The position numbers and the translations under genes are program-made. A stretch of DNA of 64,000 bases from Eledone cirrhosa (taxonomy: Eukaryota): positions 139,314,001 through 139,378,000 of the forward strand of contig OZ024741.1 in the NCBI GenBank assembly GCA_964016885.1, given 5' to 3'. Shown piece after piece: positions 1,131-61,992 of this stretch (position 1 is the stretch's first letter; each line of letters starts with the position of its first letter). The notes under the pieces were generated by a model that saw nothing but the letters and a program-made list of their open reading frames with translations, was not told where the DNA came from and did no database searches.

Positions 1131-1585
1131 TATAATAGAATATAAAAGAAAAACGAACACAGACATATACATATATGTGTTCAAATCGTAAGTCACCGGA
1201 TTCACTAAGATTAAAAGAATACTAACTATAGACAATTGGGTTTGCCTGTGTCAATTTAAGAAAAAATTAAGAAAATAAATACAAACGTGAATTGTGGTAA
1301 CTACCAATCACCCAGAATGTTAATTGTGAATAGAGTTACCAATTCAAGGTCATTTATTTTCTTAATTTTTTCTTAAATTGAGACAAGCAAACCCAATTGT
1401 CTATAGTTAGTATACTTTTCACCGTAGTGAATCCGGCACCTCACGATTTGAACACATATATGTATATGTCTGTGTTCGTTTTTCTTTTATATTCTATTAT
1501 AATATACGGCTCGGAAATATCTCTTCCTTAGAGCTATTTTGTTGTAAGAGACTAATTTGAGTTCCTAACTCAATATATACCTTTG
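1131..1585. mobile_element. Fold-back insertion between (TA)n tracts
   Basis: 1131-1280 is the imperfect reverse complement of 1352-1501; right arm continues with an unpaired ~85 nt tail. Confidence 0.75.
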
Positions 1586-1616
1586 ATATATATATATATA
1601 TATATATATATATATA

Positions 1617-4127
1617 GTTATACTTGGGGAGGGTCATATTTGTGTAATATTGCCAGAATTAATAACAGAACACACTCACTGTTTGGTTGGCTTTCGCTTC
1701 TCGCTTCTGTGTCTTTTATATCGGTAATCTAACTTACTCGGTCCTCAATGTTGCCATTGACTGACCGACGGTCAAAAATAATACAGATCCAATATACACA
1801 CAAACACATATATATAGTTTATCATAAATTTTTCGTTGCACATCTGCAACATCCTCACTGGTGTTATCGTTTCCTCCTGTTGTGCTATATGTCTACGCCA
1901 TTTTTATTCACTCTGTCTATATATTTATTTATTTATTTGCTTGATTGTTTATTTTATTTTGTCTTCTAGTGCATGCGTTTGTGTGTAGTGTTTTGTTTGC
2001 TGTGTGATGGGTGACTAGTGTGTGTTTATGTGCTGGTTGTTATTGTGTTTGTGTATGTATTTATTTATTTATTTATTATATTTTATTTACTTATTTATAC
2101 TTCTCTTAGGTCAGTGTTGTTTGTTTGGGCGTTGTTATTCCATTCATTCTTTCTGTTTAGTCTTGGCCTTCTAATTTCTATTTCCCTGGCCTCTCTGATT
2201 TGCCATTCCTATGTTTACATATTATTCTAATTTCTATGTTGTCTATGTTACCGTCATGTTGTTGTCTAGCATGTTCGCATAGTACTGACCCGTTTTTTCG
2301 TCCTTTTAGTTCCCCGCAGTGTTGGTCTATCCTTTCACCTATGCTACGAGCTGTCTCACCTATGTATGTTGTTGTCATGTTTCTGCAAGTACCCTCTGTA
2401 CATCATATGATATAGACTACGTTTCTAGTTTTACAGTTTATCCGGGGTTCACCTTACATATGATACGTTTCCTATTGGTACAGTGGGTTTTCTTAAAAGG
2501 GTAGGTTTTGCTGATCAAGGATTTTATGGTGGTTCCTGGCTTTTCTACCACCTTAATTTTTAAGTGGGTCTTCCTCAGGGCCTTTCTACACTGGTTAGCT
2601 AATTTCCCTCCGGGAGTAGCGTCCACAAACATGACACTCTGGTATCTCTGATTGTCGTACCATGAGGTGGCTTTTCCTATCTTATGTCTAGCCCTATCTA
2701 AGCTATTCCATGATTTGTTCCTGTATAATGGGCAAATTCCTTTAATGTCCAGTTCTACGAGGGTCTTATACTTCTCCATGGCTCTTTCGTATACTCTAAC
2801 TCTGTCTGTTTGGTTGTAGCCAGAGAACTGCATGCGGTTGATGAAGTGTTGGATGTGTCTTTCCATTTCTGTTGGGTCGCACATGCGGGACACATTCTTC
2901 ATCACTCGTACCAAATCTGCGATCAGAATATTAAACTTAGCACTACTGGACATTGCTGAGTTTTTGAGTATCAGGTATTTGGAGGCCATGGGTTTAGCAT
3001 AGTGTGAGTGGAGAATTTGGGCTCTCCCGTCTATAGTGTTAATCCAGAGTTCTGTGTCTAATACAGGTAGTCTATTGTTAGGGTGTTTGGAAGGGAAGTC
3101 GATAGTTACAGTTATACACTGGTGTATGGAATTAGCTATCTGCTGGATGCTTTCCATCGTGCTACGTTCTAAATCAAACTTGTTAGTGTTTTCTAGTGGG
3201 GATGTTCTTATAACTATATTGATTTCGTCTACATAACGAGAGTACATGATGAGGTCTATGGAGCTCTCATTAATGAGATCTTTAAATCTCCTTTCCCACC
3301 ATACCATGAAAAGGTTGGCAACATCACCAGCTATGCTGACGCCAATGGCTGCTCCCTCATTTTGGGTGTAGATCTTCTCGTTGAACTTAAATATGTGGCC
3401 ATTTAGGGTAGTTTTGGGAGTCTTTTTTGCCATTGAGGTTATGGTGGGTGGTCTACCTCTTATAGGTCTACTGGGACAGAAACGTCTAAAGTCATGGCTC
3501 TCTAGGTAGTCTGTGTCGTAGGTAAGTCTAAGTAGGAGGCCCAGTTCGTCTGTGTCGACGTCGCAGAACTCTACCTCACTCTCAATGATCATCTCCACAC
3601 ATATTTTCACAGCAAAATCAATGTTAATGAATGGGTACAGTGACACCACATCCATGCTGCCTATTATGTAGTTGGATAGGTTCCTGTTTTTGTTGCACTC
3701 ACTGATTCTGCTGAGGAGGTACTCTGTACTGTCACATACATCTGGGGACATCTTGATTATGGGGCCTATAACCATTGAGAGGAAGTAGGAGATCCTGTAG
3801 TTACTAGCTATATTAGCTCCGTATACGGGTCTTGTTTCAGATGTGCAACGAAGGATTTATGATAAACTATATATATGTGTTTGTGTCTATATTGGATCTG
3901 TATTATTTTTGACCGTCGGCCAGTCAATGGCAACATTGAGGACCGAGTAAGTTAGATTACCGATATAAATGACACAGAAGCGAGAAGCGAAAACCAACCA
4001 AACAGTGAGTGTGTTCTGCTATTAATTCTGGCAATATTACACAAATATGACCCTCCCCAAGTATAACAATATTTGTTTCGACACACGATTTCATATAAAA
4101 AACCTCACAAAACTAATTCATCGCCGC
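1617..4127 (-). mobile_element. 5'-truncated Penelope-like element (canonical C-terminal GIY-YIG, Neptune-like) with inverted terminal repeat
   Basis: RT and EN remnants on minus; 1617-~1847 is the reverse complement of ~3837-4067; both ends abut (TA)n; right arm has an extra ~60 nt tail to 4127. Confidence 0.9.
2130..3835 (-). pseudogene. PLE reverse transcriptase plus GIY-YIG endonuclease, disrupted
   Basis: ORF 2438-3775: IGSMDVVSLYP, QNEGAAIG, SRYVDE, LPVLD, YAKP; downstream NVVY..C...C..YIGETARSIGERIDQH and LCEHA, with stops and frameshifts. Confidence 0.9.
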
Positions 4128-4175
4128 TATATATATATATATATATATATATATATAAATATATATATATATATA

Positions 4176-4256
4176 GCGGCGATGAATTAGTTTTGTGAGG
4201 TTTTTTATATGAAATCGTGTGTCGAAACAAATATTGTTATACTTGGGGAGGGTCAT
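4176..4256 (-). repeat. Inverted copy of the last ~80 nt of the adjacent PLE across a (TA)n tract
   Basis: Reverse complement of 4047-4127. Confidence 0.85.
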
Positions 4257-59905: not shown

Positions 59906-59945
59906 TATATATATATATATATATATATATATATATAAAATATAT

Positions 59946-60856
59946 GGCGAATAGGATTGTCTGTGTAGTTGCTAGTTAGAGTAGTTTAAAATGGAATGAG
60001 AATAAGAAGAAAGCAAAACGGGGGGCAGTTTTTCTCATCAGTTGTCTACTGGGGTCTCGGATATTTCAACGCTTTAAAGACAAGATATCTACCCCCAGGG
60101 CATTCATATATTTGGTAAGTTATTGGGAAAACGGAGGGGGGAAGGAAGGAAAATAAAAGGGAAAAGCGAAGAAAGAGAAAACAGCGAAAAAAACAACAAA
60201 CCGAGCAATGTGCGAGCAACTTAAGGTAAGAAAATCCAAGACCACAGCGATAAAAGAACTTAAGTTCAAGAGCGTGTCGGCGAACGGAAAGACACGTCTG
60301 ACCCCAGCAAGTGTAAGTGAGAAAAGGACTGGTAGAGGGTCAGGCCAGGGAAACAATGAGGTGACTCGCAGAGAGAGGATGTGTGAAAGTGAGAGGGAGA
60401 AATGGAGAGGAAGAAAGATAGGTAAGAGTAGATAGTAACAAAATAGGTAGGTAGAAGGAGAGAGAGAAAACTGTCCACAACGAAACATGATTCAATATAT
60501 GGAGAACAGGATTGGCTGTGAAGTTGCTAGGGTCAGACGTGTCTTCTAGTTCGCCCACACGCTCTTGAACATAAGTTCTGTTATCGATGTGGTCTTGGAT
60601 TTTCTTACCTTAAGTTGCTAGCACATTGCTCGGTTTGTTGTTTTTTTTCGCTATATTTTCTTTTCGTCCCTTTTCCCTTCTGTTTTTCTTCCCTCCCTCC
60701 TCCGTTTTCCCAATAACTTACCCAGTTATTGAACGCTCTAGGGGTAGATATCTTGTCTATAAAGCGTTGAAATATCTAAGACCCCCAGTAGCCAACTGAT
60801 GAGAACAACTCCGTCCCCCGTTCGGGCTTTCTTCTTATTTTCATTCCATTTTAAGC
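59946..60856. mobile_element. Older fold-back insertion with ~330-bp diverged arms
   Basis: ~59985-60312 inverted at ~60522-60855; ~40 nt tail on the left; (TA)n both sides. Confidence 0.8.
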
Positions 60857-61221
60857 TATATATATATATATATATATATATATACATATATATATATATA
60901 TATATATATATATATATATATATATATATATATATATATATATATATATGTATATATATATATATATATATATATAATATTAAGGATACTATTTATGGGT
61001 TTGTATATATTAAAACTGTTTATAGTTATGTATATTTTAGACCTTAAACAGTGAAAGTCAGTAATTGGAAGTGAATAAATGCTTTGAACATAGCTTTGAT
61101 CCTTGTGAATTCTCTCTCTCTCTCTCTCTCTCTCTCTCTCTCTCTCTCTCTCTCTCTCTCTCTCTCTCTCTCTCTCTCTCTCTCTCTCTCTCTTTATATA
61201 TATATATATATATATATATAT

Positions 61222-61992
61222 AATATATTTAGAAACACACAGATACATGCGGACACACACATATATACATGAATGCATCCGCACCCAACTGTGAGTTAAG
61301 GGTGCCAACTTCACGTAGTCGAGGAATTTAGGAGCAGTTTAGGTATGATACATTTTATTACTAATTATATCTAAATGTTTCTTCTCTCTTCATAATGTAT
61401 TTTTAACTCTGATACTGGTTCAGTCTAGTTCAACTGAATTGGTCTGTCCCAGTCATTCATTGAGCAACATCGGTGAAGTTGGCACCCTTAACTCACAGTT
61501 GGGTGCGGATGCATTCATGTATATATGTGTGTCCGCATGTATCTGTGTGTTTCTAAATATATTGTTAATAACTCCCTCTGGTCGAGCAATCTTTGAAGTG
61601 TGGGGACAGCTGGAAAGCTTCCATTACTCATACTTCTCGCCTTCTTCACCACCTCTTCTGCGGCCTCGATATAAATACCCCCTCCGCCTCCGTGGTATTT
61701 TCTTCGGGGTTATAAGAGGCTTAGCTCTGTTTCTCGACCGTTATATCGCGTGACTATCTCCCCCTCCGCCTTTTGGGATTCTTTCTCACGTCGTGTAGAC
61801 GCGTTCTTGAGACTAGTAAAATGAGGTATCCTCTTGATAAGTCGGCAGACCTCGCAAGGACTCTATGTCTTTATGATATATTGTTTTTGTTTATGCCACG
61901 AAACTACGTAGTCGAGGAATTTAGGAGCAGTTTAGGTATGATACATTTTATTACTAATTATATCTAAATGTTTCTTCTCTCTTCATAATGTA
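61222..61992 (+). mobile_element. Retrozyme-like 593-bp unit with ~87-bp terminal direct repeat and ~93-bp inverted arm
   Basis: acgtagtcgaggaatttagg..cataatgta at 61313 and 61906; 61222-61314 inverted at ~61473-61560. Confidence 0.82.
61830..61917 (+). ncRNA. Hammerhead ribozyme with U3-A8 core variant
   Basis: cctc-TTGATAA-gtcggca...tgccac-GAAA-ctacgta-GTC-gagg; ACTACGTAGT palindrome. Confidence 0.75.

What the first reader, a model, noticed from the sequence alone, without database searches (positions are those of the whole stretch)
1131..61992. Recurring tail-out fold-back architecture in (TA)n: one arm keeps the tail, the other stops at an internal TA
Seen in many independent insertions (1131, 1617, 11279, 15441, 20364, 29499, 36822, 50290, 59946; similar inverted arms at 15655 and 61222): two copies of the 3' end face outward and join at truncated 5' ends. 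One arm carries a ~40-170 nt tail; the other ends earlier at or near a TA-rich site that merges into (TA)n. In the three coding cases the tail is on the short arm, not the ORF-bearing arm. Known: PLEs make inverted pseudo-LTRs and have a 3' tail. Inference: both strands of the self-complementary target prime cDNA, one at the true end and one by internal TA microhomology, and the ORF-bearing arm comes from the internal priming event.
Basis: partly seen in the sequence, partly recalled or inferred. Interest (0 to 1): 0.75.

Follow-up and report, generated by a model that had tools for sequence, protein, structure and literature searches.

The report
Penelope fold-backs with twin start hairpins
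These back-to-back, one-tailed repeats are insertions of a known class of jumping genes (Penelope-like elements); both outer ends stop at short TA stretches inside the element's own sequence, in most families just before a duplicated small hairpin that likely tells the copying enzyme where to start on each cut DNA strand.

Summary
The architecture is real at all 11 coordinates and is the published Penelope-like element (PLE) layout: inverted 5'-truncated copy, one-sided tail, (TA)n target. Genome-wide samples of five families gave 133 of 136 classifiable fold-backs with exactly one tailed and one tail-less arm.

The tailed end is not the element's true end: tandem copies read straight through it into the next unit (seen in eight families). 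The ORF arm is not always tail-less: 9 of 31 arms of 1 kb or more carry the tail, and the short-arm bias is strong only in one family.

Both ends lie at 2-5 nt TA microhomologies. In the Hydra-type families and their non-coding satellites, each end is followed within about 5-12 nt by a covarying bulged hairpin; I predicted the second copy for three families before finding it. Best model (inferred): both nicked target strands prime internally on one tandem RNA at two hairpin-marked sites, so the tail is the spacer between them. I did not find the hairpin pair in six literature searches; this scan noted it earlier on other DNA of this genome.

The parts
1125..1585 (.). Family E fold-back (non-coding 510-nt tandem unit with a hammerhead core); tail-less arm left, tailed arm right, tail about 1507-1585
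1509..1534 (+). Family E bulged hairpin just 3' of the tail-less site
   Evidence: coordinates read by hand
1617..3844 (-). Family A (Neptune/Nematis-type PLE) long tail-less arm with 3' part of the RT-GIY-YIG ORF
3845..4127 (+). Family A short arm; tail 4068-4127 encodes N-terminal codons of the next tandem ORF
4176..4254 (-). Separate family A stub (tail plus about 20 nt) facing the 1617 element across a TA run
11279..15106 (-). Family B (Hydra-type PLE) long tail-less arm with broken ORF
15107..15340 (+). Family B short arm with hammerhead core (15156) and 89-nt tail 15252-15340, which is 5' UTR of the next unit
15259..15278 (+). Family B bulged hairpin 3' of the tail-less site
   Evidence: coordinates read by hand
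15442..15631 (.). Family D (Hydra-type PLE) stub; tail 15442-15521 on the left, hairpin at about 15490-15513 (-)
15656..18049 (.). Family H: inverted tail-less arm plus tandem 522-nt non-coding units ending in a 400-nt tail
20364..20571 (.). Family D stub
29499..29656 (.). Family D stub with a tail-less arm of only about 9 nt
36822..40446 (.). Family C (Hydra-type PLE): tailed 903-nt arm left (tail 36822-36993, hairpin 36956-36989 on -), ORF-bearing tail-less arm 37897-40446 on +
50289..50819 (.). Family F (Hydra-type PLE) perfect palindromic stub; tail on the left, hairpin about 50342-50381 (-), hammerhead core in both arms
59946..60856 (.). Family G fold-back, older (85-92% arm identity); family and coding status not established; hairpin descriptor not met
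61223..61993 (.). Family I: inverted tail-less arm plus about 594-nt non-coding unit; 431-nt tail

Best explanation
These are Penelope-like element insertions into (TA)n whose two outer ends lie at short TA microhomologies inside a tandem element sequence, and each was likely made by two target-primed reverse transcriptions, one from each nicked strand, started at two fixed internal sites of a read-through RNA. Shown: the layout, the one-tailed/one-tail-less pairing, read-through past both ends, microhomology at both ends, and a duplicated bulged hairpin 3' of both ends in Hydra-type families and their non-coding satellites. Inferred: the hairpins are RNA binding sites that position the RT (probably a dimer) so that a (TA)n primer pairs with the AU stretch just 5' of each; the tail is the spacer between the two sites; both cDNAs stop at variable 5' positions and are joined head to head, so either arm can be the long one.
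For: 133 of 136 classifiable clean pairs are tailed plus tail-less (155 distinct pairs examined, 14 dropped for unexplained internal sequence, 5 unclassified, 5 of the 133 are window copies). Read-through past the tailed end: A into ORF codons; B 17 of 100 listed rows; D 13 of 100; E 25 places among 100 rows; F 9 of 100; C locus L245. Hairpin descriptor met at 16 of 22 site sequences against 72 of 2,965 (2.4%) TA/AT positions in element bodies. The base pair at the foot of the stem switches between A-U and G-C, and upper stems differ yet pair. The second hairpin was predicted in notes before searches found it in D, E and F. Non-coding units E, H and I show no nucleotide match to B, C, D, F at E<0.01 yet keep the hairpin. 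Short re-copied segments next to the ends in C and F and (TC)n added only at the tailed end in F (16 of 16 tail-less partners go straight into TA) fit RT start-up slippage on RNA. In vitro, a lizard PLE nicks and extends both strands, starts internally at two sites that bracket the tail, and is a predicted dimer (PMC11167929).
Against: No biochemistry here. PMC11167929 reports initiation at RNA sites not homologous to the cut DNA and no strand difference in site use, which does not predict microhomology or strict one-to-one pairing. Family A shows the same pairing without the hairpin and with several tailed ends (+48, +50, +54, +59/60). The descriptor was tuned after seeing B-E and fails at 6 of 22 sites (A both, G, I tailed, one E-like tailed copy, the one F copy fetched). 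Families share ancestry, so sites are not independent. Pattern-anchored samples miss arms shorter than the anchor and come mostly from contig C1; the F sample was chosen for TC. One RNA versus two is unresolved: arms resemble their partner more than other copies, but age confounds this. Empty sites could not be recovered. A chance level for microhomology length was not computed.
Confidence: 0.6

Rival explanations
1. Both strands prime at one site and one end is then trimmed or resolved by the element's endonuclease at its own TA-rich site; the hairpin acts as a DNA signal for the nuclease.
For: PMC8557442 suggests the tail most likely results from endonuclease-mediated resolution. PMC11167929 cites that the D. 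virilis endonuclease needs the tail for recognition. This would also give strict one-to-one pairing.
Against: Re-copied segments at tail-less ends in C and F look like RT restarts there. Two RT start sites bracket the tail in vitro. Several hairpins use G-U pairs.
Confidence: 0.2
2. A single cDNA folds back, or an antisense RNA self-primes, and the second arm is a copy of the first.
For: Perfect or near-perfect palindromic centres at 50290 and in family D. Self-priming was proposed in PMC3846280. Partner arms are more alike than random pairs.
Against: A copy cannot exceed its template: the tail-less arm is the longer in 53 and the tailed arm in 29 asymmetric pairs, and only one arm has the tail. 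Tail-only inverted arms that do not overlap the other arm occur.
Confidence: 0.1
3. One reading: one primer at the RNA's true 3' end and one at an internal TA, with the ORF arm from the internal event. The variant is that ends are inherited from master copies transcribed into their flanking (TA)n.
For: Tail on the short arm in 3 of 3 window cases and 27 of 31 asymmetric B pairs; 22 of 31 arms of 1 kb or more are tail-less. Fixed tailed ends in B, C, D would fit inheritance.
Against: Read-through past the tailed end in eight families; several tailed ends in A; duplicated segments at C ends contain bases found only 3' of the end in read-through copies; no bias in A; long tailed arms exist. The B bias shrinks if the 89-nt tail is counted in the arm length.
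Confidence: 0.1

Closest known systems
Insertion units of endonuclease-positive PLEs (PMC8557442 passages; PMC3846280 passages)
   Same: Partial tandems forming pseudo-LTRs, adjacent inverted 5'-truncated copy head to head, tail at one end only, tail overlapping ORF start (family A), N-rich ORF inserts, (TA)n targets.
   Different: Published tails are 30-40 nt and called optional; here 48-172 nt in coding families and 400+ nt in non-coding units, with near-obligate one-tailed/one-tail-less pairing.
Poseidon PAc of Anolis carolinensis (PMC11167929, parts 1-2 of 4 read)
   Same: Both strands nicked and extended; internal RT initiation at two sites bracketing the tail; predicted dimer.
   Different: PAc starts in an AC-rich stem-loop without homology to the target; here both sites have TA microhomology and, in Hydra-type families, a duplicated hairpin 3' of each.
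Hydra clade of C-terminal EN+ PLEs (PMC8557442 section 11)
   Same: Families B, C, D (and F by similarity) show RWR, DKT, CxCx5C, CxxC/CxH motifs and (TA)n insertion.
   Different: Units are 3.6-4.0 kb rather than under 3 kb; the section does not mention start-site hairpins.
Non-LTR retrozymes as non-autonomous PLE derivatives (bioRxiv 10.64898/2026.07.22.740005, parts 1-2 of 5 and term search)
   Same: Families E, H, I are 0.5-0.6 kb non-coding tandem units; E has a hammerhead core.
   Different: The preprint's text has no occurrence of 'tail', 'stem' or 'hairpin'; here the shared hairpin offers a candidate cis signal for mobilisation in trans.
LINE-1 twin priming (recalled, not from a call)
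   Same: Two target strands prime on the RNA and give an inversion; tail-only arms resemble it.
   Different: LINE-1 inversions do not overlap and use chance internal sites; here sites are fixed and arms usually overlap by tens to thousands of bases.

Membership tests
EN+ Penelope-like elements | RT plus C-terminal GIY-YIG endonuclease in one ORF | tested here: met
   Motifs read by eye in A, B, D translations; Pfam gave 0 hits for the window's PLE fragments, so this rests on motifs, not an HMM
EN+ Penelope-like elements | Partial-tandem pseudo-LTR | tested here: met
   A unit 4,147 nt, B 4,032 nt, D 3,629 nt in tandem
EN+ Penelope-like elements | Inverted 5'-truncated copy and one-sided tail | tested here: met
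EN+ Penelope-like elements | Hammerhead motif in the pseudo-LTR | tested here: inconclusive
   Core found by descriptor in B, E, F; not in A, C, D, G, H, I; no hammerhead family among the 150 of 192 Rfam rows shown
EN+ Penelope-like elements | RT phylogeny | not tested
   No reference PLE set in session
Hydra clade (B, C, D, F) | RWK-type and DKT motifs | tested here: met
   RWR in B, C, D and DKT in B, D; F only by 45-61% identity to B
Hydra clade (B, C, D, F) | CxCx5C linker, CxxC and CxH, no CCHH | tested here: met
   By eye: CxCx5C in B and D; CxxC and CxH in C and D
Hydra clade (B, C, D, F) | Generally under 3 kb | tested here: not met
   B 4,032 nt and D 3,629 nt; the paper gives this as a tendency
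Hydra clade (B, C, D, F) | (TA)n insertion | tested here: met
Neptune/Nematis (family A) | CX2-5CxxC linker and CCHH in the endonuclease | tested here: met
   By eye in L310 translation; Neptune versus Nematis not resolved
Non-LTR retrozymes (E, H, I) | Non-coding tandem unit with type I hammerhead, self-cleaving, circular RNA | tested here: inconclusive
   Non-coding tandem units; core by descriptor only in E; cleavage and circles not testable

The most novel reading that the evidence does not exclude
Hydra-clade PLEs use a telomerase-like template design twice on one RNA: a short AU alignment stretch beside an RT-binding bulged hairpin. An asymmetric RT-endonuclease dimer commits one target strand to each site, the same hairpin pair lets non-coding retrozyme-like units ride along, and start-up stuttering writes new microsatellite, so these elements partly make the repeats they sit in.
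Probability: 0.25. Interest if true: 0.8.

Novelty: new variant of a known kind. Interest (0 to 1): 0.5.

Why it matters
How PLEs make inverted repeats and one-sided tails is named as an open question in PMC8557442. A defined pair of start signals with fixed offsets gives a direct in vitro test, explains tail length as signal spacing, suggests how non-coding satellites are mobilised, and bears on the PLE-telomerase relationship. The layout itself is ordinary for PLEs.

Tried and rejected
DNA similarity search of the own genome returned nothing because the sequence is too common; exact patterns were used instead. Pfam missed the PLE fragments. Rfam gave only sub-threshold miRNA-type hits to TA hairpins. 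The first arm-length chaining broke on a deletion in the reference and was replaced. The B 'UU' class was a classification error, fixed; one search held duplicate loci, removed (L024 and L092 may still be one duplicated event). The empty-site search among fetched loci found no convincing unique empty site, so de novo (TA)n synthesis is untested. The partner-identity test is confounded by age and by arms shorter than the window. Read mapping was not attempted because the stretches hold long repeats. No structure or complex prediction was run. Rejected: tails as flanking DNA; tailed end as true end; tail side tied to the ORF arm; simple snap-back.
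Full report
Setting. The window is 33% G+C, has no N and is full of (TA)n. It lies at G000:C2:139314001-139378000 in a 3.0-Gb genome. Earlier scan notes call such genomes octopus; I did not test this.

Observation. Self-BLAST and arm alignment confirm outward-facing inverted arms with a one-sided overhang at all 11 coordinates. 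They fall into nine families: E (1131), A (1617), B (11279), D (15441, 20364, 29499), H (15655), C (36822), F (50290), G (59946), I (61222). Exact 23-27-mers give 13,491 (A), 4,325 (B), 571 (C) and 36,979 (D) genome matches, with 0 for reversed controls.

Identity. Tandem copies give whole units. A is 4,147 nt, with RT, a CX4CxxC linker and a GIY-YIG domain with CCHH, so Neptune/Nematis-type by motif. B (4,032 nt) and D (3,629 nt) carry RWR, DKT and CxCx5C, and C and D carry CxxC and CxH, matching the Hydra clade description. F is 45-61% identical to B at protein level. E, H and I are 510-594 nt non-coding units. These labels rest on motifs read by eye; Pfam had no hit and no tree was built.

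Pairing. From loci around first-listed matches, 155 distinct tail-out pairs were found; 14 were dropped for unexplained internal sequence and 5 had an unclassified end. Of the other 136, 133 have one tailed and one tail-less arm, 2 have two tailed arms (each includes a read-through tandem arm) and 1 has none. Five of the 133 are window copies. The tail-less end is sharp in each family. The tailed end is fixed in B, C, D and takes four positions in A.

Tail side. Measured from the tail-less site, the tail is on the shorter/longer/equal arm in 14/13/3 (A), 27/4/9 (B), 9/4/1 (C), 1/4/31 (D) and 2/4/7 (F) pairs. The longer arm, where 1 kb or more, is tail-less in 22 and tailed in 9 pairs, or 19 and 9 without the window's own three. 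Four further B copies have tailed arms of 2.4-3.8 kb with no recognisable partner end. Inverted arms made of the tail alone, or part of it, occur in A and B. So a lean towards a short tailed arm exists, mainly in B, but it is no rule.

The tailed end is internal. In A the tail encodes N-terminal codons of the next ORF, as described for rotifer Penelope (PMC3846280, passages). In B it lies in the 5' UTR about 50 nt before the start codon. Read-through copies appear in 17 of 100 listed rows for B, 13 of 100 for D, 25 places among 100 rows for E, 9 of 100 for F, L245 for C, and within the window for H and I. At every site the element's own sequence continues for 2-5 nt as alternating TA before leaving the (TA)n phase. 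A chance level for this was not computed.

Twin hairpins. In B, C, D, E, F and H both sites are followed, starting 5-12 nt downstream, by a hairpin with a conserved 4-bp base stem, an upper stem of 2-6 bp, a loop of 3-18 nt and a 2-nt bulge on the 3' side. The outermost pair switches between A-U and G-C, H's second copy changes another pair on both sides, and upper stems differ in sequence yet pair. The descriptor is met at 16 of 22 site sequences and at 72 of 2,965 TA/AT positions in element bodies; shuffles give 0.8-7.5%. It fails for both A sites, G, the tailed site of I, one E-like copy and the single F read-through copy fetched (3-nt bulge); by eye 6 of the 9 listed F copies have an intact stem. 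The descriptor was shaped on B-E, but the second hairpin of D, E and F was predicted in notes before the searches. E, H and I share no other detectable nucleotide similarity with the coding families.

Slippage marks. Short segments are re-copied next to the ends in C and F; in C the repeat includes bases that lie 3' of the end only in read-through copies. Among 24 F copies chosen for a (TC)n run between tailed end and (TA)n, 16 had a detectable tail-less partner; all 16 go straight into (TA)n, one with a GA run further out. This suggests that the TC run was made at insertion, but inheritance from a master RNA is not excluded, and empty sites were not recovered.

Mechanism. Most likely (inferred) the endonuclease nicks both strands of (TA)n, each 3' end pairs with the AU stretch beside one hairpin on a tandem read-through RNA, and two cDNAs are made and joined head to head. 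This extends PMC11167929 (parts 1-2 of 4 read), which showed both-strand nicking, two internal starts bracketing the tail and a predicted dimer, but no target homology. Snap-back cannot give longer tail-less arms in 53 pairs and longer tailed arms in 29. Nuclease trimming of one arm remains possible. One RNA versus two is open.

Literature. The layout, one-sided tail and (TA)n preference are in PMC8557442 (passages, section 11 and a supplement term search with 0 hits for 'hairpin'). The retrozyme preprint (parts 1-2 of 5 and a term search; supplements closed) does not mention tails or hairpins. Six searches found no paper on paired start hairpins or strict pairing; older subscription papers on Penelope were not readable, so absence from print is not established. 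LINE-1 twin priming is recalled. This scan recorded the twin hairpins earlier on other DNA of this genome; I saw those notes after my own tests.

Verdict. Known architecture, correctly seen. The testable addition is a pair of internal, hairpin-marked start sites.

Noticed in passing
family F tailed ends, e.g. L336, L341, L346, L351, L357: (TC)n runs of 2 to about 28 units between the tailed end and (TA)n, absent at the partner end; possible RT stutter on a UC dinucleotide.
   Followed up: partly
family D pairs and family B pairs: Head-to-head junctions cluster: about 45-65 nt upstream of the tail-less site in D and about 150-190 nt in B, suggesting a fixed RNA 5' end or RT stop.
   Followed up: no
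window 4045-4258: Two family A tails face each other across one TA run, making a tail-in palindrome from two separate insertions.
   Followed up: partly
L310 and L311 (G000:C1:14381000-14396500): Near-identical tandem array of 4,147-nt family A units with a poly-asparagine region, ended by an inverted tailed arm.
   Followed up: partly
window 12636-13053: Long AATAAA-type microsatellite inside the 3' UTR of the family B copy.
   Followed up: no
window 7225-8293 (-): Broken RT ORF with a Pfam RVT_1 hit (E 4e-19), a non-LTR element of another kind; short inverted arms at 6510-6929 beside it.
   Followed up: no
window 59265-59901 and 4272-4638: Another inverted-repeat family beside TA runs whose ends did not fit the tail scheme.
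   Followed up: no
window 21530-21816, 46187-46398, 47809-49234, 53729-56890: Many copies of a roughly 200-nt SINE-like repeat, one pair inverted at 49024-49194.
   Followed up: no
window 50991-51105: Stub of a sister family of A with a similar end motif and a longer tail.
   Followed up: partly
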